From Thaumarchaeota archaeon UBA141 (GTDB lineage: Archaea; Thermoproteota; Nitrososphaeria; Nitrososphaerales; UBA141): a stretch of DNA of 49,985 nt. The notes below the pieces were generated by a model, which ran no database searches, had not been told where the DNA came from, and saw only the letters and a list, made by a program, of their open reading frames with translations. Position numbers and translations under genes: made by a program. The stretch lies in NCBI GenBank assembly GCA_002495315.1, contig DAEN01000051.1:1-49985 (forward strand), written 5' to 3'. Within the stretch, counting starts at the first letter, position 1. Each line of letters begins with the position of its first letter. Below, in pieces: positions 1 to 44,364 of the stretch.

Positions 1-141
1 CGCTATGGTTGTATCGGTTCCAATAGGAAGATGTGGCCCATGTTGTTCAAGACTACCAATGGGAATAATTGATGTTTTTGTTCGTTTCGAGAAGCTTTTG
101 ATCTCTTCCCACGTGTGGTCCGGCAGATACAAACTCTTCAC
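1..141 (-). CDS. arfB: Creatininase-fold protein, N-terminal fragment running off the left edge; likely 2-amino-5-formylamino-6-ribosylaminopyrimidin-4(3H)-one 5'-phosphate deformylase (ArfB)
   Basis: Not in the ORF track (shorter than 60 aa in-window). My minus-strand translation from GTG at 141-139 reads (M)KSLYLPDHTWEEIKSFSKRTKTSIIPIGSLEQHGPHLPIGTDTTIA and stays open to position 1. GS-x-EQHGPHLP-x-GTD is the creatininase-family metal-site block. The start lies 4 nt after the arfC stop. Confidence 0.65.
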   Translation of the reverse strand, partial: MKSLYLPDHTWEEIKSFSKRTKTSIIPIGSLEQHGPHLPIGTDTTIA

Positions 142-145
142 GGAA

Positions 146-823
146 TCACCTCGAAACCCTGTAAAACAGAACGAGATCTTGACCGTATCTTGAAGTCTTC
201 TTTAGAGACAGCTTTATTCCCTCCTTGACCAGTCGCACGCCTTCTCCATCTGCTAGAGTGATAGCTCGTTCTCCTCCTATAACTAATGGTGATAGCGCAA
301 CACTGACTTCATCTACCAATCCATTTGATAGCATGCTCCAGTTGAGTTTTCCGCCCCCCTCTAGAAGTATTCGATCGATGGATTTACTCTTTAGTATGCG
401 CATCATTTCGCTAAGATCTACTTGCTCTTTCCCACATACCAAAATTTCCGCTCCGGCTGATTCCAGACTTTCGATCCTTTCTGACGATGCATTTTCACTG
501 ACACAGATGTACGTCTTTACTTCAGGATCAACTTTGATTACTCTGGCATTTGGTGGTGTCCGTGCATTGCTATCAGCTATAATTCGTACGGGTTTCTTTC
601 CACGTGCATAACGAAGTGTTAGACTTGGATTGTCTGCAATTATTGTGCGAACGCCGACTAGAATGCCCCCAACAGAGGCTCGAAGACGATGGACTCTTTT
701 TAGATCTTGGAAAGAAGAGATCTTAGAATCTCCGGTTGCAGTAGCAATCTTGCCATCGACAGTCATAGCTGCGTTCAATATCACGTAGGGGCTATTTGTT
801 ATTGCATCTTGGGAGAGAACCAT
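146..823 (-). CDS. arfC: 2,5-diamino-6-ribosylamino-4(3H)-pyrimidinone 5'-phosphate reductase (RibD C-terminal-domain type, archaeal ArfC)
   Basis: 225 aa. N-terminus PYVILNAAMTVDGKIATATGDSKISS and LLEGGGKLNWSML are typical of the RibD_C/DHFR-like reductase fold. Lies in the rib operon. Confidence 0.85.
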   Translation of the reverse strand: MVLSQDAITNSPYVILNAAMTVDGKIATATGDSKISSFQDLKRVHRLRASVGGILVGVRTIIADNPSLTLRYARGKKPVRIIADSNARTPPNARVIKVDPEVKTYICVSENASSERIESLESAGAEILVCGKEQVDLSEMMRILKSKSIDRILLEGGGKLNWSMLSNGLVDEVSVALSPLVIGGERAITLADGEGVRLVKEGIKLSLKKTSRYGQDLVLFYRVSR

Positions 824-2033
824 GAACTAATTCACCCTTGACCATCACTGCTACTATGTCGTCAGGTCGAGCTCTGTGCACTATTGAAGAGATAATGTCT
901 TTTGAGAACTTCAAGTTTGAAGAACGACTATTTAGAAAAACAATATCTGCTATTTTCCCTTCCTCTAGTGAGCCAATTTCTCTTTCGAGTTCAAGTGCCT
1001 TGGCACCTCCTAGGGTAGCCATGCGTAGGACATCAGCCGATTTGATTGCGTTCGGGTCTCGGTGGTTTGCTCTAGACATCTTTGAAGCAAAATCCATTTC
1101 TCGGAACATGTCGCATGAATTCAGCATTACGTTGTCTGTGCCCAGACCAACATTGATTCCTAATCGTACGAGGTCGGTAATTGGTGGAAAGCCATGACCC
1201 AATATTGCATTTGCTCTTGGGCAGCATACTACTGATGTCCCTGATGAAGATATCTTTTCTATGTCTCTTCTTGTCGTGTGGACAAGATGCACTAAAAGAT
1301 GTGGCCTGAGATAAGTCAGAGCTCGAGATACTTCTGAACTTCCAAACGTTCTTATGGAGAATTCTGCAGAAGACCGAGCTTCTCCAACATGTACCGCGAC
1401 TAGTTTTCTGGCCTTCGAGGCAAGCGATGACAGATCCACTAGTGCCTGGTCAGTGAACTCGTTAGGTCCACTAACGCCAAGACCATTACCTTCCTGTAAG
1501 ACTCTCTCTGTTTCATTAATGATTTGTGTCGGAAGACCAACCCCAGTGTTGATGTCTAGTGGAGGCGAATAGTAGTTTGGTCTGCCCAGAGCTATGAGTC
1601 TATTCGCAAGTCCTTCTGCGGCTTTCTTGAGCAGTCTAAGTCCTTCTAGGCTAGTCTCTCGGAAGTCGGCTATAGTGGTGATGCCATTAGCAAGCATCTC
1701 TTGTAAGCTCTCTCTCATTCCCTCGACAAGCGTTTTTTGTGGCACTTCCTTGAGGATTCTGGATTTGAGGCCGGTGATTGGATGTACTAACTCCCCCATC
1801 GTCTTTCCAACTCCAATATCTTTGACTACTGAATCTCCTAGATGCACGTGCGCATTTATCATGCCTGGCATAGCTATCAGTCCATTTCCATCATAGCGCG
1901 TTCCACTAAAGGCAGGGAGATTGACGTCACTTAGTGTCTTGATCTTCGGGCCCTCGATCTGAAGAAAACTATCCTCCACAGGGCTGAATCCAGGCCCAGC
2001 TAGAGTCAGGGCACCTTCTATGATCGCATTCAT
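792..2033 (-). CDS. Amidohydrolase-superfamily, deaminase-type metallohydrolase (COG0402-like; cytosine/guanine/MTA-SAH deaminase pattern)
   Basis: 413 aa. Motifs: HxH (INAHVHLGDS), HxxE (VAVHVGEA), a further His (LVHLVH) and GLGTDN. ATGA stop/start overlap with arfA at 2030-2033; 32-nt overlap with the arfC start. Confidence 0.85.
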   Translation of the reverse strand: MNAIIEGALTLAGPGFSPVEDSFLQIEGPKIKTLSDVNLPAFSGTRYDGNGLIAMPGMINAHVHLGDSVVKDIGVGKTMGELVHPITGLKSRILKEVPQKTLVEGMRESLQEMLANGITTIADFRETSLEGLRLLKKAAEGLANRLIALGRPNYYSPPLDINTGVGLPTQIINETERVLQEGNGLGVSGPNEFTDQALVDLSSLASKARKLVAVHVGEARSSAEFSIRTFGSSEVSRALTYLRPHLLVHLVHTTRRDIEKISSSGTSVVCCPRANAILGHGFPPITDLVRLGINVGLGTDNVMLNSCDMFREMDFASKMSRANHRDPNAIKSADVLRMATLGGAKALELEREIGSLEEGKIADIVFLNSRSSNLKFSKDIISSIVHRARPDDIVAVMVKGELVHGSLPRCNNK

Positions 2034-2803
2034 CGTTCAGTGGACTTCATCAGTTTGCGCGTTGGTCCGTTTGTTCTTTCTTCTCTGATCTTATCTAGGT
2101 TGGCAGTAGCTAGCTCCATTGCTTTTCTAGCCCTCATTGCTATTCCAACTCCTCCTTTCAGTGAAAGGTGGAGGCCGCGACCAGTGTTTTCAAGGATTTT
2201 TTCAATAGAGTCTGCTCGAACACCATTAGCTACCGCGGCAAAGTTATCTCCTCCGAAGTAGAAGGTAAGTGCTTTCTTTTTCAGAAACTGTTCTCCTAGT
2301 GCAACTGAGATCTTTCTCATCATCATTGTAGTCTCAAACGCGGAGATAACGTCCACGTATTTCTGAGTGGCATAGTCTACATCGATATGCACCATCTGAA
2401 CTCGGTCTCCGGGGAAGTCTTGAGGCGTTCCAAGAAGGAGGCTTTTTCTCTTATTCGATTGTGCACTCCCTGCATGTTGAAGAACAACGGAGGCCATGTG
2501 TTGTGCTTCATATGGAGTATTGCCCCTTCCCACGCTCATGCTAATAGTGAAGGGGTATTTTGAGAGGATCTCTTCTTGAATGGAAGCATGTTCTGGAAGT
2601 CCTATCCCATTTGTAATAGCTAGGATCTCATCAAATCGATTGTAGAACACTATTCCATTTCTGTTTGAGATATGTTTCTGCAAATCGGAATATAGGGATG
2701 ATTGTAACATTTGAAGACGATACTCGCGATCATTCCCGAGTTCCATGGTCCAAGGACCATAGTTGTCGATCTGTATGAGCGTAATCTGGATCTTATTTGT
2801 CAT
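2030..2803 (-). CDS. arfA: GTP cyclohydrolase III (FAPy-forming, archaeal)
   Basis: 257 aa. The N-terminal IQITLIQIDNYGPWT block is characteristic of the MJ0145-type GTP cyclohydrolase III. Confidence 0.9.
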   Translation of the reverse strand: MTNKIQITLIQIDNYGPWTMELGNDREYRLQMLQSSLYSDLQKHISNRNGIVFYNRFDEILAITNGIGLPEHASIQEEILSKYPFTISMSVGRGNTPYEAQHMASVVLQHAGSAQSNKRKSLLLGTPQDFPGDRVQMVHIDVDYATQKYVDVISAFETTMMMRKISVALGEQFLKKKALTFYFGGDNFAAVANGVRADSIEKILENTGRGLHLSLKGGVGIAMRARKAMELATANLDKIREERTNGPTRKLMKSTER

Positions 2804-2805
2804 CT

Positions 2806-3267
2806 TTAATCTACCATTATCGTTTGGTTTTTGCCTTTGGTAGCTCGAATTCTTCTACTACTGTTTACCATCTTGATGGCTGCTTCTACTGATCTTCTAG
2901 AGAATTCATCTGCGCGAGCTAATCCCTGATCCATAGTCATGCCAGGTCCGGAGATCCCGAGGGTGACTGGCTTTTCATACTGAAGGGATAGATCCGTTAT
3001 CTTGGCTGCGACTTGCTGGGCTATAATCTGGTCATGTTGTGTTTCGCCCTGAACAATCGCGCCGAGAGTCACGACTGCGTCAACTTTCTGTCTCTTCAGT
3101 AGTAGCTTGATGAAAAGAGGCATATCAAACGCTCCAGGGACCTTGCAAATGTATGTGACTTTGGCTCCTGAGCTTTCTGCATATCTCTTAGCCGAGTTTA
3201 ACATCAATTGGGTGATCTCAGAATTGAATTCGGAGACTATCAGTGCCACGTGAACTTTATCATCCAT
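2806..3267 (-). CDS. ribH: 6,7-dimethyl-8-ribityllumazine synthase
   Basis: The conserved region starts at MDDKVHVALIVSEFNSEITQLM. I prefer this internal Met (3267) over the track start 3390, which would overlap ribB by 100 nt. Confidence 0.9.
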   Translation of the reverse strand: MDDKVHVALIVSEFNSEITQLMLNSAKRYAESSGAKVTYICKVPGAFDMPLFIKLLLKRQKVDAVVTLGAIVQGETQHDQIIAQQVAAKITDLSLQYEKPVTLGISGPGMTMDQGLARADEFSRRSVEAAIKMVNSSRRIRATKGKNQTIMVD

Positions 3268-3289
3268 TTGTTTTGATTCCACCTTGCGA

Positions 3290-4039
3290 CTACACATTTC
3301 TCTTGCTGGATTTTCTGGAAAGCTTCTTTGCTTCGAAGGAAGCAATAAGATCTGTTCCTTCAATGAATGGAATCCCATTTTCCTTGGCATATTTCTTAGC
3401 GAGATTATTGGTCAGGGCATTGTGAGTCTTGCCGTCTAGAATCTCACAAATCACTGTTGCCGGAATTAGGCCTGCTAGTTCAGCTAGGTATAGTGAAAGT
3501 TCTGTATGACCACGTCGAGTTGCAAGAAGTCCAGCAGCTGCGATCAGTATGTGCACATGGCCCGGGGATCTAAACTCGGAGGCCAGAAGTCTTCTAGCTT
3601 TAGCTGTGTTTTTGATTGTAGCAATTTCGCATAGTTTTGTTAATCCCTTGATAGTAATAGCTCTGTCGTGGTCTGTTATGCCTGTGTACGTGGTCCTATG
3701 GTTGACCGTAATGGAAAAGGCTGTTCTATCTCCATATGGTGCTACCCCGTCTGCCAATTCAGTGAGAATGCTGTAGTTCTTAGCTGCAAGCCGGTAGATT
3801 TCCGGCAAGAAAGGCAGGCCAAGAATTTTAGCGGTTGAATGGGTAATGGCTTGACATACAAATCCTCCAGCTTCCTCTCGCAAGCGTCTGATGTGGTCAG
3901 GAGTGACAAATTCCGCAGCAACAACCATGTCTGTTTCATCTTCCCTTGAAGAGACGTCGTGGATTAGTACAAACTTGCCCTCACGGAGAGCTCTAATGGC
4001 GTGGTCAAAAGAGAGGTCGCGATTAGCAGCTCGAGGCAT
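3290..4039 (-). CDS. ribB: 3,4-dihydroxy-2-butanone 4-phosphate synthase
   Basis: 249 aa. FVLIHDVSSREDETDMVVAAEF and GHTELS motifs match the DHBP synthase family. Confidence 0.9.
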   Translation of the reverse strand: MPRAANRDLSFDHAIRALREGKFVLIHDVSSREDETDMVVAAEFVTPDHIRRLREEAGGFVCQAITHSTAKILGLPFLPEIYRLAAKNYSILTELADGVAPYGDRTAFSITVNHRTTYTGITDHDRAITIKGLTKLCEIATIKNTAKARRLLASEFRSPGHVHILIAAAGLLATRRGHTELSLYLAELAGLIPATVICEILDGKTHNALTNNLAKKYAKENGIPFIEGTDLIASFEAKKLSRKSSKRNV

Positions 4040-4060: not shown

Positions 4061-4070
4061 CTTTATATAA
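4061..4070 (-). promoter_or_regulatory. TATA-like box of the rib operon (TTATATAAAG on the minus strand)
   Basis: Centred about 27 nt upstream of the ribB ATG (4039). This geometry fits an archaeal promoter driving a leaderless mRNA. Confidence 0.45.
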
Positions 4071-4153
4071 CAATTACCAATTAATTAGCAGTAACCAATA
4101 ATATAGTAATGTACGTAGTTGATACTCTCCGGGTGGCCACACTGAGTATGGAC

Positions 4154-5831: not shown

Positions 5832-7994
5832 TCATGTGCGGTTGATGACGCCGTTCAAATATTGGTCGATGGTATAAGAAAATCCTTGAGGAAGGACTAT
5901 TGTGGTATCTTCTGCTTCGATTATTCCCGGACCGTCTATCCTATTGCCACATCTGAGCATTTTTCTCTCATACGTCTTTGTAGCCTGAAAGGTTCCAACA
6001 TCTTGCCAAAATACCTCTCGCTTGCCCTTGAATGCATTGGTAGGGTCGGTTCCGTTTGTCTTGTGCCGTGGAAATCGAGGTTTTTCCGTTTGGACAATCG
6101 TCTTAAGCAGGAGGTTTTCCACTTCGATTCCACTCTCTGGATATGTCGCCGCACTACTGTAAAGTCGGGCATACTCTTTCTCGAACGCGCTACAGACAGC
6201 TTTCGCATCTTTTTCTCCCTCAAGGTGTAGACGCGGGGATACAATTCTGGTTGTGTTTAGCTGAGTACCCCATTTCATGTCGAGCTCGAGAATGACCTGC
6301 GTCTGACGGTCTGAGAATCCCTCGCCTCGCATATCCTTTATTGCTCGAGTTTGCAATTCATCGACTATCTCGTTGAAAATAGTGTAATCTGGGACGTACT
6401 CTCCTCTGAATCCGTTGTCCAACGTGATGCGGTGTCCCTTTTCATATGTGTGCATTATGTCCATTGTTGCAGCTCCAAAGGCACAAAAAACTGGTGAGAA
6501 TGGTAATGTGAGTATTGTTTTCACTCCTAATTCTGAAGCGAAGCCACAGCAATGAGTAGGTCCTGCGCCCCCGTATGCTACTAAAACGAGGTCACGTGGA
6601 TCATGTCCCTTTAACGCTGTTTCCTTGTAGAGCTCAGCTCCCATGTTGGCATCTGCAATCTTTCTAATAGCTGCCGCAGATTCTGCTAAATCTAGGCCGA
6701 GCGGTTCAGCGATTTTATTCTTAAGGGCATCTATTGCTCTATCACGTCCGAGAGATATGCGGCCCCCGAGGAAATATTTTGGATTGATGTACCCGAGGAT
6801 CACATCTGCATCAGTTAGAGTAGGTTCTTTTCCTCCCTGACCGTAACACGCCGGCCCGGGCATAGAGCCGGCACTCTGTGGGCCGATCTCTATTTGGTTC
6901 CCGAGGCTGTAGTTGATATGAGCTATCGAACCACCTCCGACTCCGATTGATTTCACTTCTAGAGTTGAGAGGGCCACCAACCATCTGTCAATGACGGGCC
7001 TGTACTGGTACGAGCTTGCCTGGCCGTCAGCGATCAAACCCAGGTCAAAACTCGTGCCTCCGACATCAGTGAGAATTAGATTCTTGTAGCCATATAGCTG
7101 ACTCAGGAATACTCCGCCAAGAAGGCCTGCTACTGGTCCGGCTCCATATAGTTGATACGCCATTGTTCTAGAAACTTTTCCTGTTCCACCCGAGTTGTGG
7201 ACAATCACAAGAGGCTTCGTATAGCCAGCGTTCCGGAGCTCATCACCCAAAGCCGTTAGTTGCTCTGCAGCGTCCTGGTGAAGATAAGAATTCAGAATTG
7301 CAGCATTTGTTCTGGGATATTCGCCAAGTTTCGGTAAGACCTCGCTGGATAGGATGATGGGTAGTGCACCAAGGTAGTGTTCGGGGTACTCTTCTTCTAT
7401 TATGCTGCGGATCAATTGTTCATGCGCGGGATTCATATGAGACCAGAGAAGAGCCACGACAAAACCTCTGGCGCCTGAGTCTACTAGATGTTGAACCACA
7501 TTCCTGACGTTCTCTCGGCTCAACGGCATGACTTCTTGACCGAAACAGTCGATCCTTTCATCAACCCCTGCAACCATCTCGGGCAGGACTAAGGGGACGG
7601 GTTTTCTGAGTGTCGCGTAATGAATACCGCGTTGATATTCAACTGGAAGGCCATCGGCCCATTGACGGGAACGACCTATGGTGACAGTATCCTCGAAGCC
7701 CTTTGTTGTTATGAGCCCAAGCTTAGGGCCTGTTCTTTGGATGAGGGTATTTGTAGGGATGGTTGTGGAGTATCTGATGATCTCTGCTCTGCCTAAGAGC
7801 TCGTCGCGGTCCAACCCCAACTCGCGGGCTGCCCCCTTGACTGCTGTGAGGAAACCTATGGAGAGATTGTGATGTGTTGTAGGGGACTTCGCGGTGACTA
7901 TCCGTTTCCCATGCACGACGAAGCAGTCGGTGAACGTCCCGCCAATATCGACACTTATCGTATTCTTAGGACTGTTTTCTCGCATGTTTACCAC
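5832..7994 (-). CDS. Hydantoinase/oxoprolinase A-type subunit (HyuA / acetone carboxylase beta-like), paralogue 1
   Basis: 720 aa. Shows DIGGTFTD, TDVGGTSFD and GGAGPTHC actin-fold ATPase blocks shared with the other two paralogues. The start may be ATG 7985. Confidence 0.85.
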   Translation of the reverse strand: MVNMRENSPKNTISVDIGGTFTDCFVVHGKRIVTAKSPTTHHNLSIGFLTAVKGAARELGLDRDELLGRAEIIRYSTTIPTNTLIQRTGPKLGLITTKGFEDTVTIGRSRQWADGLPVEYQRGIHYATLRKPVPLVLPEMVAGVDERIDCFGQEVMPLSRENVRNVVQHLVDSGARGFVVALLWSHMNPAHEQLIRSIIEEEYPEHYLGALPIILSSEVLPKLGEYPRTNAAILNSYLHQDAAEQLTALGDELRNAGYTKPLVIVHNSGGTGKVSRTMAYQLYGAGPVAGLLGGVFLSQLYGYKNLILTDVGGTSFDLGLIADGQASSYQYRPVIDRWLVALSTLEVKSIGVGGGSIAHINYSLGNQIEIGPQSAGSMPGPACYGQGGKEPTLTDADVILGYINPKYFLGGRISLGRDRAIDALKNKIAEPLGLDLAESAAAIRKIADANMGAELYKETALKGHDPRDLVLVAYGGAGPTHCCGFASELGVKTILTLPFSPVFCAFGAATMDIMHTYEKGHRITLDNGFRGEYVPDYTIFNEIVDELQTRAIKDMRGEGFSDRQTQVILELDMKWGTQLNTTRIVSPRLHLEGEKDAKAVCSAFEKEYARLYSSAATYPESGIEVENLLLKTIVQTEKPRFPRHKTNGTDPTNAFKGKREVFWQDVGTFQATKTYERKMLRCGNRIDGPGIIEAEDTTIVLPQGFSYTIDQYLNGVINRT

Positions 7995-8319
7995 GATGTT
8001 TTGTCTTCAGAAGGTCAATGTCTAGCTCGATGTCATTCGTAATGGGATGTCCAGGAGGGAGATATTCTACTTCTAGAACGGTTCCGCAGCCTGGGCAGAC
8101 GAATTCCAGGATTCGACACCATTTTGGATCAGGGGCGAGGGTGTATTTACCTCTAACTAGAGGTGGATGCACGTCAGTAGGATCGCGCTCCAATACCAAA
8201 CACCCCTCCTTGTAGCTCTTGCGAGCAGAGATCAGTTGTCTTCCACACCTGTTACAACACCATGACTCTTCCTCTAAATCCACTTCCAAATGGTCCGTTA
8301 TTCTGTGTCTCGATCCCAA
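7966..8319 (-). CDS. Small zinc-ribbon protein, acetone carboxylase gamma subunit-like (gamma1)
   Basis: 117 aa. Two CxxC pairs (CCNRCG ... CPGCGTVLEVEY). Overlaps the start of HyuA paralogue 1. Confidence 0.7.
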   Translation of the reverse strand: MGSRHRITDHLEVDLEEESWCCNRCGRQLISARKSYKEGCLVLERDPTDVHPPLVRGKYTLAPDPKWCRILEFVCPGCGTVLEVEYLPPGHPITNDIELDIDLLKTKHRGKHARKQS

Positions 8320-8429
8320 CTTCTAAGATCTATTGTCGATGTTTGTCCTTCTTAAACATCATATGCTTGGCATGTGCTAAACTGGATACACAGAAAGACA
8401 CAATAGACCCTGATATCTATGTAAATGGA

Positions 8430-9407
8430 ATGGCTTCTTTAGGTGGGCACACGTATCTTGATATCGTTGAAAGACTTACTTATCGATTGGGTACACAATC
8501 ACGTCACATAGACTTCACTGGAGCACCAAAGTGGGAAATTCCTGAGAAGATCATCATAGGTACTGCTGCTTATGGCGTCTTTATTGACAAGGAACAAAAT
8601 CCGAATCAGCCAGTAACTCCTGAAGAATGCATCAAGGCCTTTGAACCCTGTATAGAGATGGGTGCACCTGGAGTACATACTCATGCTCGAGGAATGAAAG
8701 GTGGGTTTTATGAGCCGAATAAAGCCCGGACCTTTCTTCATTCTGTTCTAGATCCTCTTCGCAATAAATACGGTGACAAGATCGTTACTGATGGGGGAAT
8801 TGGGTACTATGGTAAGACTATGGATGAAAACCTCTTTCCGGTAGACGAGGGACTATACGAGGTAGTGATTCTTAATCCAAGTGTGGGGCAGATGGGTGAT
8901 TATGTTCGTGTTTACTCGCCAAAAGTGGTACAAGATGAGGTGAAATATGTTCAGGATCGTGGCAAGAAAGTTCTAATTGACATCCATGATACGACACATA
9001 TTGGTAATGCACAGAAATGGCTGGTGGATACTGGAGTCCTGCAGAAGCCATACTTCTGGCATATCTTGGGACCAGTGGATGGAGGCTTCATACATATGCC
9101 AAACCTAAGAGCAATGGTCGACGGTCTTCTGTACCTGGTAGATAGAATTAGAGATATTGACAAGGACTCCATAATCTACGTGAGTCAGTCAGGGAGAGCA
9201 TCTACCTATCTTATTGCGCTCTCTATCCTACTTGGCCTGCACGTCAGGGTGGGAATGGAAGATACGATCTGGAAATGGCCACATAGAGACGAGAAGATCA
9301 AGAGTAACGAGGAAGTGGTACGGGCAGCTATTGAGATAGCCAGATATCTGGGACGGGAACCTGCGACATCAGATGATTATCGCAAGATGGTCGGACTGAA
9401 ACGCTAG
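8430..9407 (+). CDS. Beta-keto acid cleavage enzyme family (BKACE / DUF849, 3-keto-5-aminohexanoate cleavage enzyme-like)
   Basis: PVTPEECIKAFEPCIEMGAPGVHTHARG resembles the BKACE N-terminal TIM-barrel block with its HxH zinc motif. I prefer ATG 8430 over the track start 8262, which overlaps gamma1. Confidence 0.6.
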   Translation: MASLGGHTYLDIVERLTYRLGTQSRHIDFTGAPKWEIPEKIIIGTAAYGVFIDKEQNPNQPVTPEECIKAFEPCIEMGAPGVHTHARGMKGGFYEPNKARTFLHSVLDPLRNKYGDKIVTDGGIGYYGKTMDENLFPVDEGLYEVVILNPSVGQMGDYVRVYSPKVVQDEVKYVQDRGKKVLIDIHDTTHIGNAQKWLVDTGVLQKPYFWHILGPVDGGFIHMPNLRAMVDGLLYLVDRIRDIDKDSIIYVSQSGRASTYLIALSILLGLHVRVGMEDTIWKWPHRDEKIKSNEEVVRAAIEIARYLGREPATSDDYRKMVGLKR

Positions 9408-10396
9408 GTCTTCTCAGCTGACTGTTTTCTAATCGCCTTTGACACTGCAGTAATCTTCTCCGGTGAGATATCCAGGGGTAGTTCCCATTCTGTAGAGATG
9501 AAGAAAGAGCCCTTTAGTTTGAGGATATCTGAAATATTGTCGACCAAAAGGTTAGGAGAGGTTTCCAAATCTTGGTGAGAAATACAAGCTGCATAAGTTG
9601 TTGTCTCAGTTTTCTTATTGGTTATAGTACTGGCGATCTTATCAGCTGGAAAAATATTTCCAAGCGAAACCGCTGTTGCTCCTAATTCTAGTATCTTCAA
9701 TGATTCGTTGATGGATCTTGTCATGGTTACTACTATGGACGGAGTTTCATAGTGGTGAAGAACATTCCAAGCTGGTTGTATGATCTCTTTCAATTCGTTT
9801 GCAGGGAGTGTCGGAAGACGGTCATCCACAATGAGGAGGCCGTCTACACCCATATCGCAAAAGATTCTTTCTAGATCGAGTAAAACCTCCATCGCCAAGT
9901 CAAGCGATCTGGCCCGGATTCTGCTAGGAACGCTAGTAAGAGGTGAACCAAGTAGACTTTCTGCCAGCTTTGCTGGACCAGTAACTCCTGCAAGAACCGG
10001 TATCTCCTTGCTCTTGAGCGTTATTATGCGCTTCGTTGCTTCAATGACTACCGGGATTCTGCCTCTGTTGCTTACACCTTGTGGTTCAAAATCGCTGAGT
10101 TCTTGCGGTTTCTTTGAGTTTCCTAGCGTTGGGGGGCCACTACTCCAAAGTACCGGGAGTCCCAAAGCTTCAGCTTCAAGAGTAGTATCAAAATTAGTTA
10201 CGATCGCGTCATCCATAAAGAGGCGATGAGCCTTCTCTAGTGAAATAGCCAGGCTAGTTGGATCATGGAGTTGTTGCGTCACTGAAATTTGCATCAATTT
10301 CGAGGCGTAGGTGAAAACAAACGGGATGAATAGTGGGCGTTCTGTCTTCTCTCCTCTGACCATCTGCGCGAAGAGATCTCTTGGATGTTTGCTCAA
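9404..10396 (-). CDS. Uroporphyrinogen decarboxylase / MtaA (MT2) fold protein, divergent, without the usual zinc ligands
   Basis: 330 aa. The internal block RGRIPVVIEATKRI...IPVLAGVTGPAKLAESLL closely resembles the MtaA/URO-D family. No H-x-C motif and only two Cys residues. The TTG start overlaps the stop of HyuA paralogue 2 (TTGA). Confidence 0.6.
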   Translation of the reverse strand: MSKHPRDLFAQMVRGEKTERPLFIPFVFTYASKLMQISVTQQLHDPTSLAISLEKAHRLFMDDAIVTNFDTTLEAEALGLPVLWSSGPPTLGNSKKPQELSDFEPQGVSNRGRIPVVIEATKRIITLKSKEIPVLAGVTGPAKLAESLLGSPLTSVPSRIRARSLDLAMEVLLDLERIFCDMGVDGLLIVDDRLPTLPANELKEIIQPAWNVLHHYETPSIVVTMTRSINESLKILELGATAVSLGNIFPADKIASTITNKKTETTTYAACISHQDLETSPNLLVDNISDILKLKGSFFISTEWELPLDISPEKITAVSKAIRKQSAEKT

Positions 10397-12447
10397 TCTC
10401 CAAATGACCGCTTAATAATTCCATTACGGAACTCGTCAACTTCATAATTAAATCCCTCTTCAAGCACTAGAGTCATGTCTTCTCCCTCTACCAGAGCAGG
10501 CCCTTTGAGTATATTCCCAGGTTGGAGCCTTCTATTTTCATATACTGCAGTCTTTCTTAACCCATCGTTACTGTAAGAATCACGCCTTCCCTTGAGTGCA
10601 AGTCTGGGGTCTTTCCCGCTTTTCTGGTACGATCTTTGGATTTGGTCAGTATTAGATGCGGTCGCTTTCAGTGTAATATTTTCGATCCATAAAGCCCCAT
10701 CCTTGGTACCAATTTGTCTAAAGGCGCTTTGAGCGGCTTTGCACACAAGTCTAATTTCTTTTCTATTTCTTACGAAAAACACCGGCGAGAGGAAGCTTAC
10801 TGAGCGATTAGACTCTTCTGAAAAGATCTGCACCTCGACATCAAACTGGATGTTCTTCAGCGAGACACCTTCTCCTGTCATATCTGTAATTGCCTTGGTC
10901 TTCAAATTCTGCAGGGCAATGTTGAATTGATGGATATTGATCTTATTTTCTTGCAATTCCGCGTTATACTTGACTTCGTAATAATGTGTCACAGTCATAG
11001 TTGATGCGCCGAAAGCGCAGAAGACGGATGAGAATGGAAATGTCACGATCATAGGATCCTTGATTGGCTTCAAGAAACCACAGCAGTGAGTTGGTCCAGC
11101 ACCACCGTAGACCAGTATTGTGGGTTGAGCTATTTTCTGTTCCCTGCCCACCTCATTCGAAAGCGCTGTGGCCATTGTTGCGTCTACGGTTCTCTTGATT
11201 AGCGCTGCAGCTTCGATAACATCCAGGTTCAAAGGAAGGGCTATGTGTTCTTTGATCGCTAGAGCTGCCTTATTTCTATCCAACTTCATGCGCCCCCCTA
11301 GGAAATATTTTGGGTCTATGTAACCCAAAACCAAATCAGCGTCGGTTACGGTGGGTTCATAGCCACCTAGGTCAAAACAAGCCGGGCCAGGAATGGAGCC
11401 CGCGCTTCTTGGTCCTACTTTCAAAGCCGACTTCATTTTATCGTCTATTTCTGCAATTGAACTGCCACCGGCTCCAATCGATCTGACCGGAATCATCCGG
11501 AGACGAACAGGTAATCCACTGATGGTTACTTCTGAGGTGGGTCGAGAAGATCCATTGGAAATTCTACCAATATCAAAGCTAGTTCCTCCCATGTCTGATA
11601 CAACTGCTTCTTTTACTCCATAGAGCTTTGCTACACTCAAACCACCGAAAACTCCTGCCGCAGGGCCCGAACTGAATGTCTGGATGGCGCTGGTCTTTGC
11701 AACTCTGGAAAGTCCGCCATGACCATTTACGATCATTAGAGGTTTGTTATATCCTGCCTTATGGAGTTCGTCTTCTGCTTTGTATAGGTGTTTTACCATG
11801 TCCCTGTGAAGATAAGCGTTCACAACAGCAGTGTTGGTCTTTACAAAGTCTTCACGTATAGCTGCGAGCTGACTGGCTAGAAGTACTGGTACATGTCCGA
11901 GGTAATGTTTAGGAAATTCTTCGGCCACTAAGGCTGCTATCTTGTGTTCATGAACCGGTTTGAAGTAGCTATTTCGAAAGCTGACGACAATTCGAGCACC
12001 CACGTCAGCGAGTTCTTCAACAGCCTGTCGACATTCGTTGAGATCTATATTTTTGGTTATGCGTCCTGTGTGATCTATTGATTCCTTTACACCAATGACG
12101 TGATCTTTGTTTAAGAGGGTATCTGTAAGTGTGTCTGCATTTAGGTCCTGGGACTGATAAAGAGATTTTTCGAAACCTTTTGTTAGTATGAGCCCAACCT
12201 TGGGGCCGCTTTTCGTGATAATTGTGTTTGTTCCAATTGTAGTAGAATAGCGAATAATATCTGTCTGGGAGAGCATTTCGTTTAATGTACAACCAAATAG
12301 CTTCGCGCCTTCGGTAATGCAGCTGAGGAGGGATTCGGTTAGGTCATGGTGGGTAGTGAGGACCTTGGCGAACTTATTCTCATTATTCCCTGTAAAGTAT
12401 CCATCTGTGAAAGTCCCTCCCGTGTCCACATTGATAGTGAAGCCCAC
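10393..12447 (-). CDS. Hydantoinase/oxoprolinase A-type subunit, paralogue 2
   Basis: 684 aa. Motifs: VDTGGTFTDG, SDMGGTSFDIG, GGAGPTHCCGF. Confidence 0.85.
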   Translation of the reverse strand: MGFTINVDTGGTFTDGYFTGNNENKFAKVLTTHHDLTESLLSCITEGAKLFGCTLNEMLSQTDIIRYSTTIGTNTIITKSGPKVGLILTKGFEKSLYQSQDLNADTLTDTLLNKDHVIGVKESIDHTGRITKNIDLNECRQAVEELADVGARIVVSFRNSYFKPVHEHKIAALVAEEFPKHYLGHVPVLLASQLAAIREDFVKTNTAVVNAYLHRDMVKHLYKAEDELHKAGYNKPLMIVNGHGGLSRVAKTSAIQTFSSGPAAGVFGGLSVAKLYGVKEAVVSDMGGTSFDIGRISNGSSRPTSEVTISGLPVRLRMIPVRSIGAGGSSIAEIDDKMKSALKVGPRSAGSIPGPACFDLGGYEPTVTDADLVLGYIDPKYFLGGRMKLDRNKAALAIKEHIALPLNLDVIEAAALIKRTVDATMATALSNEVGREQKIAQPTILVYGGAGPTHCCGFLKPIKDPMIVTFPFSSVFCAFGASTMTVTHYYEVKYNAELQENKINIHQFNIALQNLKTKAITDMTGEGVSLKNIQFDVEVQIFSEESNRSVSFLSPVFFVRNRKEIRLVCKAAQSAFRQIGTKDGALWIENITLKATASNTDQIQRSYQKSGKDPRLALKGRRDSYSNDGLRKTAVYENRRLQPGNILKGPALVEGEDMTLVLEEGFNYEVDEFRNGIIKRSFGD

Positions 12448-13084: not shown

Positions 13085-14182
13085 ATGACAATTAGATATC
13101 CGCGTGGTGATTGGAAGGGTGCAATTGAGGATTATCCATTGGACGAATACCCTGATTACGAAGCGGGCAAATCGCCAAGATTTGAAAAGATTACGACTAT
13201 AAGCCATCAAGACGAAGTCGAACGGAGTACCGGACAAAAATGGGGCGAGCAAGGAATGGGGAGGCTCAGGGAGGTAGCATTGGTGAGGCCGACAGAATAT
13301 GAACTGAATCCGCTTTTCCTTAAGAATCCTGAGTTCTTTATCATGAGATATTACTTAGTGACCGGGAACAAGCCCAACATGAAGTTGCTCTTGGAGCAGC
13401 ATGATGCGTATTCCAAGGTTCTGAAAGATAATGGAATCAAGGTCAGATATATGGAATATGAGGACAATTGGGGTGCATACGGCCCGTTAAGGAAACATTT
13501 CGTAGCCGCTCGTCTGGGATTCGTTCTAAAGGGAGGAGTAGTCATTAAGCGATGGGGCCACGGTTCATGGTGCAGGGGTATGGAATATCATGCTCAGAAA
13601 TTCTTTGCTGACATAGGTTGTCCAATACTCCTATTTCCCTCGGGAAGAGCTATCTTTGAGGATGCCTGGGTTTGGCCGGCGGAGAATGTGTTGGTGGGCA
13701 ACTATGGTATTGCATGCAATGAAGAAGCGATGGAGCAGCTCACTCCCGTCTTAAAGGCCAACGACGTAGATAATGTCGTCATGGGCAATTCCACAAGCGT
13801 TATGGATAACATGGAAGCCAGCGGGGACTTTCATACTGATGTCTTCCTTGGGATAGCAGATTTGGGTCTGGCCATGGTATATCCAGGTCAGCTGGACTAC
13901 AAGATATACACCTGGCTCAAGGAACATAACTTCAGGCTCATTGAGATACCTCCTGATGAGCAGAGGAATTGTCTCCCATCAAATGGGGTCCTCCTAGAAC
14001 CTGGGAAGATTATCATGTCCACCGAGGCAAAGAAGACCAACGCCATGCTTCGCAAAGAAGGCGTAGATGTGATAGAAGTGGACACCAACGGCCTTTCTCA
14101 GGGCGGATTTAATGGCCTTCGTTGTTGTACATGCAGACTCTTGAGAGACCAAGGTCCAGAACTTGGGGAAATACGACGTTAG
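13085..14182 (+). CDS. Amidinotransferase-fold protein (guanidino-group-modifying enzyme superfamily), paralogue 1
   Basis: 365 aa. His motif GDFHTDVF and C-terminal Cys motif GLRCCTCRLLRD resemble the catalytic His and Cys blocks of arginine deiminase and glycine amidinotransferase. Confidence 0.7.
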   Translation: MTIRYPRGDWKGAIEDYPLDEYPDYEAGKSPRFEKITTISHQDEVERSTGQKWGEQGMGRLREVALVRPTEYELNPLFLKNPEFFIMRYYLVTGNKPNMKLLLEQHDAYSKVLKDNGIKVRYMEYEDNWGAYGPLRKHFVAARLGFVLKGGVVIKRWGHGSWCRGMEYHAQKFFADIGCPILLFPSGRAIFEDAWVWPAENVLVGNYGIACNEEAMEQLTPVLKANDVDNVVMGNSTSVMDNMEASGDFHTDVFLGIADLGLAMVYPGQLDYKIYTWLKEHNFRLIEIPPDEQRNCLPSNGVLLEPGKIIMSTEAKKTNAMLRKEGVDVIEVDTNGLSQGGFNGLRCCTCRLLRDQGPELGEIRR

Positions 14183-14221
14183 GAATTTCTTCCCAAGACA
14201 CAGTACCTGATTGATCTGTCA

Positions 14222-15736
14222 CTAGCTGACGGGGTATAGCTGGGATCCAAGCTTCCTGGGCAGGTACTTGCCTGTGCCAGGTTTCCCTGTTATCTGTCCG
14301 TCTTCAAAGACTATGTTGCCTCTGAGGATGGTCATCACCGGCCATCCGGTCAACTCTCTTTCTCTGAAGAAGGCATTGAACTTGGACTGAATTGTTTCTT
14401 GTGTGACTTTCTTAGTCAGTTTCATATCTACTACTACTACATCTCCATCAGCTCCGGCGATCAGTGCCCCCTTTTTCGGGTAAAGGCCAGCTGCCCAAGC
14501 GGAGTTCTTACAACAGACTTCTACAGTTCTCTCCAGTGAGAGTCGTCCTTTGTTTACACCTTCGCTGAGCATTGAAGGTAGATGGGTTTGCATTCCTATG
14601 CCTCCTGCTCCTCTATATACTTCCATATCTTCTGTAACGAAACCTGGCCCGACATTATCGTCTGGCATGCTTGGTACGTGATCAGTCCCCATACAGAAGA
14701 TACCGCCGTCTCTCAATGCAGAAACGAGTTTATCGTTATTTGCTCTGTCTCTTATTGGTGGTGTCAACTTTCCATACATGCCAGGAGGGTCCTGGGTTTC
14801 ATCGATCCATAGATGCTGTGGGTTGGCTTCAGCGTATATCTCAGTGCCATCTGCTCGAGCTTTGAGTACTTGATCAACACCTTCCGCAGAATTGATGTGG
14901 ACCACATATAGTGGAGCACCAGTCATTTTTGCAAGATATGCATAGTTCCTAATGTGAATGGCCTCAAGCCAGCCAGGAGATATGGCACTCCAGCCAGCCA
15001 TATCGCCGCGTCCTTCTTTGAGGATCCGTTTGAAGAATATTCTTGCAATGAACGTGTTTTCTGCGTGAATGTGAGCCATACACGGAGGCCCCAATTTCCC
15101 AATGCTTTCAAAGCCTAGGTAGATCGTTCCATCATCAAAACCATCAGGTATTCCCAGACGTGACGCAAATAGTCCTAATCCTCTCCGTCTAGTAATTCTA
15201 TTGCCGCCCATGTACCCAAGATAAAACTTGTACGATGTTACTCCGTATTCTTTAGCATAGAATGGTATTTCGAGAGCTTGTTCATCAGTAGCTATTGCAA
15301 AATTGTAGAAGATGTCTATTAACGCGCCGTCTTCCACAGCCTTCTTGGCAGCAGGGAAGGTCTCTTTGTAGGAAACTTGTTTTGGAGGATCGTTACTCCA
15401 GCCACTTCCCATTCTACTACTCTTTATGATCGCTCCCATGGTGGTAGTGCCGCCAATTGTAGCGACACTGGACTCATTCATGATATCGGTGGCGAAGTCC
15501 CTCTTGCCAGGATGGGTATGAGGGTCAACTACTCCTGGCAGTATGTGTTTTCCTTCGACGTCGATTGTTCGATCTCCAACAGGTAAGTTTGGGTCTCCAG
15601 CGACTACGACTATTTTCCCTTCGTTAATAGCTACGCCTCCAGGAAAGACTCCTTCCGGAGTCACGATTCGGCCATTCTTTAAAACCAGTTCTACAGACAA
15701 TTCTGTATATCTGTCCAAGTACCTCCATTTAAGCAC
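14222..15736 (-). CDS. Dihydropyrimidinase / D-hydantoinase-like cyclic amidohydrolase
   Basis: 504 aa. GVVDPHTHPG (HxH), SYKFYLGY (candidate carbamylated Lys), HIHAEN, YVVHINS and MGTDH give a full binuclear-metal ligand set. Confidence 0.8.
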   Translation of the reverse strand: MLKWRYLDRYTELSVELVLKNGRIVTPEGVFPGGVAINEGKIVVVAGDPNLPVGDRTIDVEGKHILPGVVDPHTHPGKRDFATDIMNESSVATIGGTTTMGAIIKSSRMGSGWSNDPPKQVSYKETFPAAKKAVEDGALIDIFYNFAIATDEQALEIPFYAKEYGVTSYKFYLGYMGGNRITRRRGLGLFASRLGIPDGFDDGTIYLGFESIGKLGPPCMAHIHAENTFIARIFFKRILKEGRGDMAGWSAISPGWLEAIHIRNYAYLAKMTGAPLYVVHINSAEGVDQVLKARADGTEIYAEANPQHLWIDETQDPPGMYGKLTPPIRDRANNDKLVSALRDGGIFCMGTDHVPSMPDDNVGPGFVTEDMEVYRGAGGIGMQTHLPSMLSEGVNKGRLSLERTVEVCCKNSAWAAGLYPKKGALIAGADGDVVVVDMKLTKKVTQETIQSKFNAFFRERELTGWPVMTILRGNIVFEDGQITGKPGTGKYLPRKLGSQLYPVS

Positions 15737-15856
15737 TAAGTGATAGTTTTGAATAACGGGAATGGATGTGCTTCAGACCCTTAGCTAGAAACGCAATTCT
15801 GATAGTGAGATAAAGTCATTTTTATGAACGAGATAGCGAATTCACGGATGGAGATA

Positions 15857-15864
15857 CATATTAA
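15857..15864 (+). promoter_or_regulatory. TATA-like element (CATATTAA) upstream of amidinotransferase-fold paralogue 2
   Basis: Centred about 27 nt upstream of ATG 15888. Confidence 0.35.
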
Positions 15865-15887
15865 CAACTAGAAATGTTGTTGAAAAT

Positions 15888-22586: not shown

Positions 22587-22588
22587 TA

Positions 22589-44363: not shown

Positions 44364-44364
44364 C

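What the first reader, a model, noticed from the sequence alone, without database searches (positions are those of the whole stretch)
792..2033. Deaminase-type amidohydrolase translationally coupled inside an archaeal riboflavin operon: candidate for the unassigned pyrimidine deaminase step
Six minus-strand genes are packed head to tail: ribB (3290-4039), ribH (2806-3267), arfA (2030-2803), this ORF (792-2033), arfC (146-823) and arfB (1-141). The ORF shares an ATGA stop/start overlap with arfA and overlaps arfC by 32 nt, so it is very likely co-expressed with them. It carries the mononuclear-metal deaminase signature of the amidohydrolase superfamily: HxH (INAHVHLGDS), HxxE (VAVHVGEA), a further His (LVHLVH) and GLGTDN. 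That is the pattern of cytosine, guanine and MTA/SAH deaminases. In the archaeal/fungal order of the pathway, the ArfC product 2,5-diamino-6-ribitylamino-4(3H)-pyrimidinone 5'-phosphate must be deaminated to 5-amino-6-ribitylaminouracil 5'-phosphate. Archaea generally lack the cytidine-deaminase-fold RibD/Rib2 domain. To my knowledge the archaeal enzyme for this step has not been shown biochemically, although subsystem-style predictions may exist. The only non-canonical gene in the operon is a deaminase-type hydrolase sitting between arfA and arfC. That points to a non-orthologous replacement.
Basis: partly seen in the sequence, partly recalled or inferred. Interest (0 to 1): 0.72.

Follow-up and report, generated by a model that had tools for sequence, protein, structure and literature searches.

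The report
Predicted archaeal riboflavin pyrimidine deaminase gene
A metal-dependent deaminase gene sits inside an archaeal vitamin B2 operon and very probably carries out the pathway's missing deamination step, but this gene family (MJ0699 type) was already proposed for that role in 2010 and 2017 and I found no report that it has been tested at the bench.

Summary
ORF 792-2033 (-) encodes a 413-aa amidohydrolase with an intact mononuclear deaminase site. It overlaps arfA by ATGA and arfC by 32 nt, inside ribB-ribH-arfA-X-arfC-creatininase.

The same gene sits between arfA and arfC in 14/14 Nitrososphaerota loci retrieved. It lies next to arfC in Bathyarchaeota, Heimdallarchaeota and an unclassified archaeon. 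In two further loci it lies in X-arfC-cofG-cofH clusters. None of 61 bacterial paralogues is adjacent to a rib gene.

The operon carries a degenerate tandem RbkR-type operator, in the position where relatives have exact sites.

Family-specific residues replace the substrate-contact positions of the paralogues, and three conserved cationic residues are added.

The idea is not new. The ORF belongs to NCBIfam NF005552, as does MJ0699 (Q58110; 37% identity). MJ0699 and HVO_2483 are the published candidates ('PyrD', Rodionova 2017, after Osterman 2010; Pfeiffer 2021). A Methanocaldococcus member is already named 'Pyrimidine deaminase archaeal predicted'. I found no biochemical proof.

Verdict: a correct rediscovery of a published, untested prediction. 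Interest is low to moderate.

The parts
792..2033 (-). 413-aa amidohydrolase of the MJ0699 family (NF005552/PRK07213). Predicted 2,5-diamino-6-ribitylamino-4(3H)-pyrimidinone 5'-phosphate 2-deaminase.
   Evidence: ORF. PF01979 E 1e-55. NF005552 323.8 bits against a cut-off of 294, the only model passed. 37% identity and E 2e-66 to MJ0699. AF2 model pLDDT 96.2.
1842..1850 (-). Codons for H62-V-H64 (HxH metal ligands, strand beta-1). Family-specific D67 follows at 1833-1835.
   Evidence: Invariant in 19 and 52 family members. H62 and H64 are shared with the paralogues. D67 is Met in 87% of the paralogues.
1380..1391 (-). Codons for H215-V-G-E218 (HxxE: metal ligand plus proton-shuttle Glu).
   Evidence: Invariant.
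1287..1289 (-). Codon for H249 (catalytic His of strand beta-6).
   Evidence: Invariant in the family and in the paralogues.
1131..1136 (-). Codons for D300-N301 (the metal-ligand Asp of GTDN, and the family-specific Asn).
   Evidence: D300 is invariant everywhere. N301 is invariant in the family and is Gly in 89% of the paralogues.
2030..2803 (-). arfA, GTP cyclohydrolase III. Its stop overlaps the start of the amidohydrolase (ATGA).
   Evidence: PF05165 E 5e-72. Sequence.
146..823 (-). arfC, archaeal diaminopyrimidine nucleotide reductase. Its start lies 32 nt inside the amidohydrolase ORF.
   Evidence: TIGR01508 233.7 bits against a cut-off of 186. Coordinates.
1..141 (-). 5' end (47 codons, GTG start) of a creatininase-family gene, a probable ArfB-like formamidase, cut by the window edge.
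   Evidence: Sequence. 40/47 identical to the 248-aa PF02633 gene of L081. Not canonical ArfB by NF033501.
2806..3267 (-). ribH, lumazine synthase.
   Evidence: TIGR00114 132.8 bits against a cut-off of 84.6.
3290..4039 (-). ribB, DHBP synthase, the first gene of the operon.
   Evidence: TIGR00506 214 bits against a cut-off of 177.
4074..4109 (-). Two adjacent 18-nt RbkR-type operator half-palindromes: TTACTATATTATTGGTTA and CTGCTAATTAATTGGTAA. They have 1 and 2 mismatches to TTAC-N10-GTAA.
   Evidence: Same position and 18-nt spacing as the exact tandem sites upstream of ribB in L002, L009, L012 and others. Consensus taken from PMC5397151. An exact-pattern search of the window found nothing, so this assignment rests on conserved architecture.
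4062..4070 (-). TATA-box-like TTATATAAA, about 25 nt upstream of the ribB ATG.
   Evidence: Sequence. The same element follows the operators in related loci.

Best explanation
The ORF encodes the archaeal, amidohydrolase-fold enzyme for the deamination step of riboflavin and Fo/F420 precursor synthesis. The proposed reaction is 2,5-diamino-6-(5-phospho-D-ribitylamino)pyrimidin-4(3H)-one + H2O -> 5-amino-6-(5-phospho-D-ribitylamino)uracil + NH3.

**Proposed mechanism (inferred from the superfamily).** One divalent metal (Zn or Fe) is held by H62, H64, H215 and D300 and activates water. E218 of the HxxE motif and H249 shuttle protons. Hydroxide attacks C2 of the 2-amino-4-oxopyrimidine ring and ammonia leaves. 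This is the chemistry of guanine, 8-oxoguanine and isocytosine deaminases of the same COG0402 branch.

**Specificity (inferred).** Family-only residues (D67, K90, E126, S188, R273, N301, R387) replace the adenine and ribose contacts of MTA/SAH-type paralogues. The three added cationic residues plausibly bind the 5'-phosphate.

**Expression.** The gene is expressed as part of one operon, ribB-ribH-arfA-X-arfC-creatininase(-ribE), from a TATA promoter carrying an RbkR-type operator. It is translationally coupled to arfA and arfC.

**Shown here:** gene, fold, catalytic residues, family membership, conserved linkage and operator architecture. **Inferred:** substrate, metal, and the order of steps relative to ArfC.
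For: 1. **Family.** NF005552 is the only NCBIfam model passed (323.8 bits against 294). All 52 diverse relatives hit it. MJ0699 scores 589 bits on it and is 37% identical to the ORF.
2. **Operon position.** ATGA overlap with arfA and a 32-nt overlap with arfC.
3. **Conserved linkage.**
   - arfA-X-arfC in 14/14 Nitrososphaerota loci; upstream ribB-ribH is also present in every one whose contig reaches that far (11 of 14).
   - X next to arfC in Bathyarchaeota and Heimdallarchaeota loci, and within a rib gene cluster in an unclassified archaeon.
   - The seven-gene operon in L081, L092 and L093.
   - ribE-ribB-ribH-arfA-X-arfC in L082, and ribB-ribH-X-ribE in L083.
4. **Independent context.** Flavin_Reduct-X-arfC-cofG-cofH in L094 and L095. 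Fo synthase consumes the dephosphorylated product of this step.
5. **Negative control.** None of 61 bacterial paralogues (24-32% identity) is adjacent to a rib gene. One has RibD/RibE-like genes about 7 kb away.
6. **Regulation.** A tandem TTAC-N10-GTAA operator lies just upstream of the TATA box and ribB in relatives. The window has the same architecture in degenerate form.
7. **Residues.** The catalytic residues are conserved while the substrate-contact positions are switched.
8. **Structure.** The AF2 model (pLDDT 96.2) matches COG0402 deaminases at TM 0.8-0.88 but only 18-23% identity. Matches include an isocytosine deaminase and guanine deaminases, which act on the same ring.
9. **No competitor in the window.** The window holds no CDA-fold gene. 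Its two other amidohydrolases are of the dihydroorotase/hydantoinase type.
10. **Literature.** RibD-type deaminase domains are apparently missing in Archaea, and this family is the published candidate.
Against: - No enzymatic or genetic test of any family member was found.
- In Methanobacteriaceae, Methanocaldococcus, Methanocellales/Methanosarcinales and Thermoplasmatota the orthologue is not near rib genes. Linkage evidence therefore comes mainly from TACK and Asgard lineages, and the 14 Nitrososphaerota loci are not independent.
- One member (P0101) sits among nitrilase and Rieske oxygenase genes.
- The rest of this genome could not be searched for a CDA-fold deaminase.
- The operator in the window is degenerate, with no exact match.
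- The substrate-pocket argument rests on alignment, not on a ligand-bound structure.
Confidence: 0.78

Rival explanations
1. The enzyme works in the riboflavin/F420 branch but not on the step proposed. It might deaminate the ribosyl form (the bacterial order, before ArfC) or a dephosphorylated intermediate. It might instead be a damage-control hydrolase that removes a reactive side-product of the diaminopyrimidine intermediates.
For: All the linkage evidence ties the gene to the pathway, not to one substrate. Adjacency to arfC is compatible with either order of steps.
Against: Archaea follow the reduce-then-deaminate order, as stated in PMC5397151 and PMC12542839. The pathway otherwise lacks any deaminase candidate in these operons. 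The full catalytic deaminase set is conserved.
Confidence: 0.12
2. It is a general COG0402 salvage or catabolic deaminase whose place in the operon has no bearing on riboflavin chemistry. Candidate substrates are MTA/SAH/5'-deoxyadenosine, guanine, or cytosine/creatinine.
For: Sources name family members 'cytosine deaminase', '5-methylthioadenosine/S-adenosylhomocysteine deaminase' or 'chlorohydrolase'. A paper on sponge Thaumarchaeota counts COG0402 as cytosine/creatinine deaminase. The window also holds hydantoinase/oxoprolinase genes and a creatininase-family gene.
Against: Scores on the characterised families are far below their cut-offs: 5'-dA deaminase 140 against 522, MTA/SAH deaminase 72 against 779, guanine deaminase 100 against 375. 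The nucleoside-contact positions of the paralogues are replaced: Met to Asp67, His to Ser188, Gly to Asn301. None of the 61 paralogues shares the rib context. The overlapping ORFs inside a biosynthetic operon are conserved across phyla.
Confidence: 0.07
3. It is the missing phosphatase for 5-amino-6-ribitylaminouracil 5'-phosphate, using the amidohydrolase fold as a phosphoesterase.
For: The phosphatase step also has no assigned archaeal gene. The amidohydrolase superfamily includes phosphoesterases (my own knowledge). The family has extra conserved cationic residues.
Against: The active site is the mononuclear HxH/HxxE/H/D deaminase type, not the binuclear carboxylated-Lys type. All close structural and sequence neighbours are deaminases or dechlorinases. 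If this were the phosphatase, the deaminase step would be left without a candidate.
Confidence: 0.03

Closest known systems
[quoted passage not shown] 2017)
   Same: It passes the same equivalog HMM. It is 37% identical to MJ0699 and has the same invariant residues. It has the same rib-operon and RbkR-regulon context as described for Thaumarchaeota.
   Different: Nothing of kind. It is a divergent member: beyond two near-identical metagenome sequences (99% and 89% identity), no relative exceeds about 53%. Its operon adds a creatininase-family gene, and in relatives a bacterial-type ribE. The family's function is itself only predicted.
Rib2 / RibD N-terminal deaminase (cytidine-deaminase fold) of fungi and bacteria
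   Same: It carries out the same (Rib2) or an analogous (RibD) pathway step: hydrolytic removal of the 2-amino group of the diaminopyrimidinone nucleotide. It is co-located with the reductase partner.
   Different: The fold and active site are unrelated. This is a (beta/alpha)8 amidohydrolase with His/His/His/Asp metal ligands, not a CDA fold with H/C-A-E...PCxxC. It would be a non-orthologous replacement. No CDA motif occurs in the window.
COG0402 deaminases acting on 2-amino-4-oxopyrimidine rings: guanine deaminase, 8-oxoguanine deaminase, isocytosine deaminase Vcz (PDB 2UZ9, 6OH9, 7WW2, 8IS4)
   Same: Same fold (TM 0.8-0.87), the same catalytic HxH/HxxE/H/D set, and the same leaving group on the same ring system.
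   Different: Only 18-22% identity. The guanine deaminase HMMs are far below their cut-offs. The residue five positions after the first His is an invariant Asp here. The substrate would carry a ribityl phosphate.
MTA/SAH and 5'-deoxyadenosine deaminases (Tm0936, 4F0R, DadD/MJ1541 type)
   Same: These are the best PDB sequence matches (4F0R, E 3e-28) and are of similar size and fold.
   Different: The HMM cut-offs are not met. Positions conserved in the 61 bacterial paralogues retrieved here, whose own function was not tested, are replaced in the family. Those paralogues have no rib context.

Membership tests
NF005552 / MJ0699-type amidohydrolase ('pyrimidine deaminase, archaeal, predicted') | Whole-protein score above the curated equivalog cut-off | tested here: met
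   323.8 bits against a cut-off of 294. It is the only NCBIfam model passed. MJ0699 scores 589 bits on the same model.
NF005552 / MJ0699-type amidohydrolase ('pyrimidine deaminase, archaeal, predicted') | Direct homology to the named candidates (MJ0699 = Q58110) | tested here: met
   37% identity, E 2e-66 over 349 residues. HVO_2483 itself was not retrieved.
NF005552 / MJ0699-type amidohydrolase ('pyrimidine deaminase, archaeal, predicted') | Family-invariant residues beyond the catalytic set (D67, K90, N301, R387; nearly invariant R273, S188, E126) | tested here: met
   All are present in the window ORF. They are invariant or at least 90% conserved in 52 members and absent from 61 paralogues.
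NF005552 / MJ0699-type amidohydrolase ('pyrimidine deaminase, archaeal, predicted') | Chromosomal clustering with riboflavin genes, the basis of the published prediction | tested here: met
NF005552 / MJ0699-type amidohydrolase ('pyrimidine deaminase, archaeal, predicted') | DArPP deaminase activity | not testable with these tools
Amidohydrolase superfamily, mononuclear deaminase subtype (COG0402) | HxH (beta-1), His of HxxE plus Glu (beta-5), His (beta-6), Asp (beta-8), and a (beta/alpha)8 barrel | tested here: met
   H62, H64, H215, E218, H249 and D300 are invariant. The AF2 model has pLDDT 96.2 and TM 0.8-0.88 to COG0402 structures.
MTA/SAH deaminase and 5'-deoxyadenosine deaminase (MtaD/DadD) | Score above the curated cut-off of the equivalog models | tested here: not met
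   NF005557 scores 140 bits against 522. NF012037 scores 71.7 bits against 779.
MTA/SAH deaminase and 5'-deoxyadenosine deaminase (MtaD/DadD) | Conserved ligand-contact residues of the paralogue group (Met after HxH, His at the position aligned to S188, GTDG) | tested here: not met
   These positions are Asp67, Ser188 and Asn301 instead. Which contacts these residues make in Tm0936 is recalled from memory, not tested.
Guanine deaminase | Score above the cut-off of TIGR02967 / NF006679 | tested here: not met
   100.2 bits against 375.4, and 88.9 bits against 351.
RibD/Rib2 CDA-fold pyrimidine deaminase | Cytidine-deaminase fold with the [HC]AE...PCxxC zinc motif | tested here: not met
   The ORF is an amidohydrolase barrel. 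No such motif occurs in any frame of the window.
RbkR regulon (Thaumarchaeota type) | Tandem TTAC-N10-GTAA operators upstream of the rib operon | tested here: inconclusive
   Relatives have exact tandem sites. The window has the same spacing and position but 1 and 2 mismatches, and no exact match. No rbkR gene lies in the window.
ArfB (NF033501), for the neighbouring gene at 1-141 | Score above the curated cut-off | tested here: not met
   The full-length orthologue in L081 scores 36.9 bits against 180. It is creatininase family, PF02633.

The most novel reading that the evidence does not exclude
The MJ0699-family enzyme may do more than deaminate. It might, for example, also remove or help remove the 5'-phosphate, which would explain why these near-complete rib operons encode no phosphatase. 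Alternatively it might act on an unexpected intermediate, so that the archaeal pathway differs from the textbook order. A more modest outcome is that the first biochemical proof, obtained with this or another orthologue, would close a gap left open since the archaeal pathway order was established in 2002.
Probability: 0.04. Interest if true: 0.7.

Novelty: already known. Interest (0 to 1): 0.25.

Why it matters
The deamination step is one of the last unassigned reactions of archaeal riboflavin and F420 precursor synthesis. If the MJ0699 family is the enzyme, it is a clean case of non-orthologous replacement of a cytidine-deaminase-fold enzyme by an amidohydrolase.

That hypothesis is already in the literature and in SEED-derived annotation, so this window does not open the question. 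What this analysis adds is supporting detail:

- linkage that extends to Bathyarchaeota, Heimdallarchaeota and the cofG/cofH clusters;
- a paralogue negative control;
- a list of family-specific residues to mutate;
- a warning that many databases still call these genes cytosine deaminase, MTA/SAH deaminase or chlorohydrolase.

Tried and rejected
- **Exact RbkR consensus in the window.** Zero matches. The operator was recognised only by comparison with relatives.
- **CDA-fold deaminase in the window.** A regex over six frames plus Pfam on 47 ORFs found none.
- **The window's two other amidohydrolases as rival deaminases.** Rejected: they are of the dihydroorotase/hydantoinase/allantoinase type.
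- **Reaching MJ0699.** The first two homology searches did not get there. It was reached through the representative library, then Methanotorris igneus, then the Methanocaldococcus clusters.
- **HVO_2483.** Never retrieved.
- **Literature.** Searches for experimental validation (MJ0699, HVO_2483, 'ArfD', 'pyrimidine deaminase archaeal predicted', pathway terms for 2017-2026) found only predictions. The 2010 chapter by Osterman and colleagues and the supplement of Rodionova 2017 were not readable.
- **Sigma-70 and terminator scan.** Uninformative for an archaeon.
Full report
**1. Observation**

The window starts inside a minus-strand gene cluster.

- One search lists ORFs at 3290-4039, 2806-3390 (the start at 3267 is the supported one), 2030-2803, 792-2033 and 146-823. 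One search shows a GTG-initiated fragment at 1-141.
- Pfam and NCBIfam identify them as RibB (PF00926, TIGR00506), RibH (PF00885, TIGR00114), ArfA (PF05165), an Amidohydro_1 protein (PF01979, E 1e-55) and ArfC (TIGR01508, 233.7 bits against a cut-off of 186).
- The arfA stop and the amidohydrolase start share ATGA. The amidohydrolase and arfC overlap by 32 nt.
- The fragment at 1-141 is 40/47 identical to a 248-aa creatininase-family (PF02633) gene in an 89%-identical relative. That protein does not reach the curated ArfB model: 36.9 bits against 180. 'arfB' is therefore a plausible role, not a demonstrated family membership.

**2. What the protein is**

- Of all NCBIfam models only NF005552 (PRK07213, 'chlorohydrolase', equivalog) is passed, at 323.8 bits against 294.
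- Models for 5'-deoxyadenosine deaminase (140 against 522), MTA/SAH deaminase (72 against 779), 8-oxoguanine deaminase (128 against 532) and guanine deaminase (100 against 375) are far below their cut-offs.
- All 52 diverse relatives hit NF005552.
- No close solved structure exists. The best PDB sequence match is the MTA/SAH deaminase 4F0R at E 3e-28.
- An AlphaFold2 model built on the 52-sequence alignment is confident (pLDDT 96.2, pTM 0.94). It superposes on COG0402 enzymes at TM 0.8-0.88 with 18-23% identity. The matches are AtzA, TrzN, MTA/adenosine deaminases, isocytosine deaminase Vcz, Tm0936 and guanine deaminases.
- The family is large. At least 150 clusters at 50% identity score 265 bits or more against its profile.

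**3. Context elsewhere**

A scan of species-representative genomes returned 19 archaeal loci and 61 bacterial paralogue loci. I searched their six-frame ORFs with the window's Rib proteins.

- All 14 Nitrososphaerota loci (Nitrososphaera, Nitrosopumilus, Nitrosotalea and others) carry arfA-X-arfC in the same order and with overlapping ORFs. The 11 whose contigs extend upstream also carry ribB-ribH, and 9 of those carry ribE.
- An unclassified archaeon (L017) has X inside a rib gene cluster. Bathyarchaeota (L018) and Heimdallarchaeota (L019) loci have X directly upstream of arfC.
- Methanocellales (L015) and Methanomethylicia (L016) loci show no linkage.
- None of the 61 bacterial paralogues (24-32% identity) is adjacent to a rib gene. 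One has RibD/RibE-like genes about 7 kb away.

Pfam-annotated contigs add the following.

- The seven-gene operon ribB-ribH-arfA-X-arfC-creatininase-ribE occurs in the 89% relative L081 and in L092/L093.
- ribE-ribB-ribH-arfA-X-arfC occurs in L082, and ribB-ribH-X-ribE in L083.
- In two further loci, one from a Bathyarchaeota/Hecatellales assembly and one from an unnamed metagenome, the order is Flavin_Reduct-X-arfC-cofG-cofH. Fo synthase (CofG/CofH) uses 5-amino-6-ribitylaminouracil, the dephosphorylated product of the proposed reaction. This context points to the same intermediate independently.
- Orthologues in Methanobacteriaceae, Thermoplasmatota, Methanosarcinales Met12 and Methanocaldococcus are unlinked. 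That neither supports nor contradicts the assignment.
- One member (P0101) lies among nitrilase and Rieske oxygenase genes.

**4. Regulation**

Rodionova et al. (PMC5397151) give TTAC-N10-GTAA, usually as two adjacent sites, as the RbkR operator of Thaumarchaeota.

- Exact or one-mismatch tandem sites 18 nt apart sit immediately upstream of a TATA box and ribB in L002, L005, L006, L009, L011, L012 and L082. L010 has one exact site in that position.
- The window has the same architecture at 4109-4092 and 4091-4074, followed by TTATATAAA at 4070-4062. It has one and two mismatches. An exact search found nothing, so I rate this as probable.

**5. Mechanism**

I aligned the 52 family members with the 61 paralogues.

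- The catalytic set is shared: H62, H64, H215, E218, H249 and D300.
- Other positions are conserved in the family and different or absent in the paralogues:
  - D67 is Met in 87% of paralogues.
  - K90 lies in a family-specific insertion.
  - S188 is His in 92% of paralogues.
  - N301 is Gly in 89% of paralogues.
  - F124, E126, R273, P283, M303 and R387 also differ.
- The enzyme therefore keeps deaminase chemistry but has a re-tooled pocket with three extra cationic residues. That fits a ribityl-phosphate substrate.
- The target ring is a substituted isocytosine. This is the same 2-amino-4-oxopyrimidine nucleus that guanine, 8-oxoguanine and isocytosine deaminases of this branch deaminate, so the chemistry has precedent.
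- Substrate, metal and step order are inferences.

**6. Comparison with what is known**

- PMC5397151 states that RibD-type deaminase domains are apparently missing in Archaea. [quoted passage not shown] PyrD is listed in RbkR regulons of 15 genomes.
- Pfeiffer and Dyall-Smith (PMC8305020) name HVO_2483 and MJ0699 (Q58110) as these candidates and say they 'require experimental confirmation'.
- I tied the window ORF to these names as follows.
  - The family profile finds Methanotorris igneus WP_013798840.1.
  - Its homologues include a cluster containing AAB98692.1 / UniRef100_Q58110, 'Uncharacterized protein MJ0699'.
  - Another cluster contains a protein named 'Pyrimidine deaminase archaeal predicted [Methanocaldococcus lauensis]'.
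  - MJ0699 is 37% identical to the window ORF (E 2e-66) and scores 589 bits on NF005552.
- No paper in the searchable library reports an assay or a knockout.

**7. Rivals**

- A general salvage or catabolic deaminase (MTA/SAH, guanine, cytosine/creatinine) is suggested by database names. It is also suggested by a Thaumarchaeota paper that reads COG0402 as part of creatinine degradation. The HMM cut-offs, the switched pocket residues, the paralogue control and the conserved overlapping-ORF position in a biosynthetic operon all contradict it.
- A different substrate within the same pathway cannot be excluded computationally.
- A phosphatase role is unlikely given the mononuclear deaminase site.

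**8. Verdict**

It is, however, a rediscovery of a published and database-propagated prediction. The window adds one more, fairly divergent, orthologue in the canonical Thaumarchaeota-type operon. Novelty: already known. Interest: 0.25.

Noticed in passing
window 4062-4109 (-): A degenerate tandem RbkR-type operator plus TATA box lies upstream of ribB, with the same 18-nt spacing as the exact TTAC-N10-GTAA pairs in Nitrosopumilus and Nitrososphaerota relatives. No rbkR gene is in the window.
   Followed up: partly
window 1-141 (-); L081 11893-12639; L092 8882-9625: The creatininase-family gene that closes the rib operon is not a canonical ArfB (NF033501 36.9 bits against 180). It scores higher, though still below the cut-offs, on the MftE and creatininase models. 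It may be an alternative formamidase like the predicted haloarchaeal ArfB candidate or the bacterial BrbF.
   Followed up: partly
L081 12654-13304; L092 9630-10301; L001-L012 upstream of ribB: These archaeal rib operons use a bacterial-type riboflavin synthase (RibE, PF00677; NF006767 217 bits) rather than the archaeal RibC. In this window the gene would lie just beyond the 5' edge.
   Followed up: partly
L094 5427-10278; L095 5361-10358: In one Bathyarchaeota/Hecatellales locus and one unnamed metagenome locus the amidohydrolase and arfC are clustered with cofG and cofH (Fo synthase) and a flavin reductase-like gene. This amounts to a module supplying the deazaflavin precursor.
   Followed up: partly
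window 5832-12447 and 20748-24709 (-): Three Hydantoinase_A genes and one Hydantoinase_B gene lie here, together with an acetone-carboxylase-gamma-like gene, a BKACE gene and a URO-D-like gene. Part of this block is syntenic in L081. It suggests ATP-dependent lactam or ketone carboxylase/hydrolase metabolism in a heterotrophic Nitrososphaerota-related archaeon.
   Followed up: no
window 13085-16982: Two arginine-deiminase/DDAH-like (amidinotransferase-fold) genes flank a 504-aa dihydropyrimidinase/hydantoinase-like amidohydrolase on the opposite strand.
   Followed up: no
window 42984-45360 (-): A dihydroorotase/allantoinase-type amidohydrolase (TIGR00857 281.8 bits against 279) sits next to a luciferase-like monooxygenase. 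It is not a deaminase and has no link to the finding.
   Followed up: partly
P0408, P0177, P0391, P0071, P0438 (database names): Family members are variously named MTA/SAH deaminase, cytosine deaminase or chlorohydrolase. Some sit in MAGs labelled Methylomirabilota or Actinomycetota, although the P0071 contig carries an archaeal-type arfA operon. This suggests misannotation, mis-binning or transfer.
   Followed up: no
L084 (P0101): One family member (39% identity) lies among nitrilase, Rieske oxygenase, PrpD-like and amino-acid permease genes with no rib genes. It may be a paralogue recruited to catabolism.
   Followed up: no
whole window; The organism is divergent. Apart from two metagenome sequences at 99% and 89% identity, the closest relatives of the amidohydrolase reach only about 49-53% identity (Nitrososphaerales MAGs). 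Species-representative genomes give 37-39% on the best segment.
   Followed up: no
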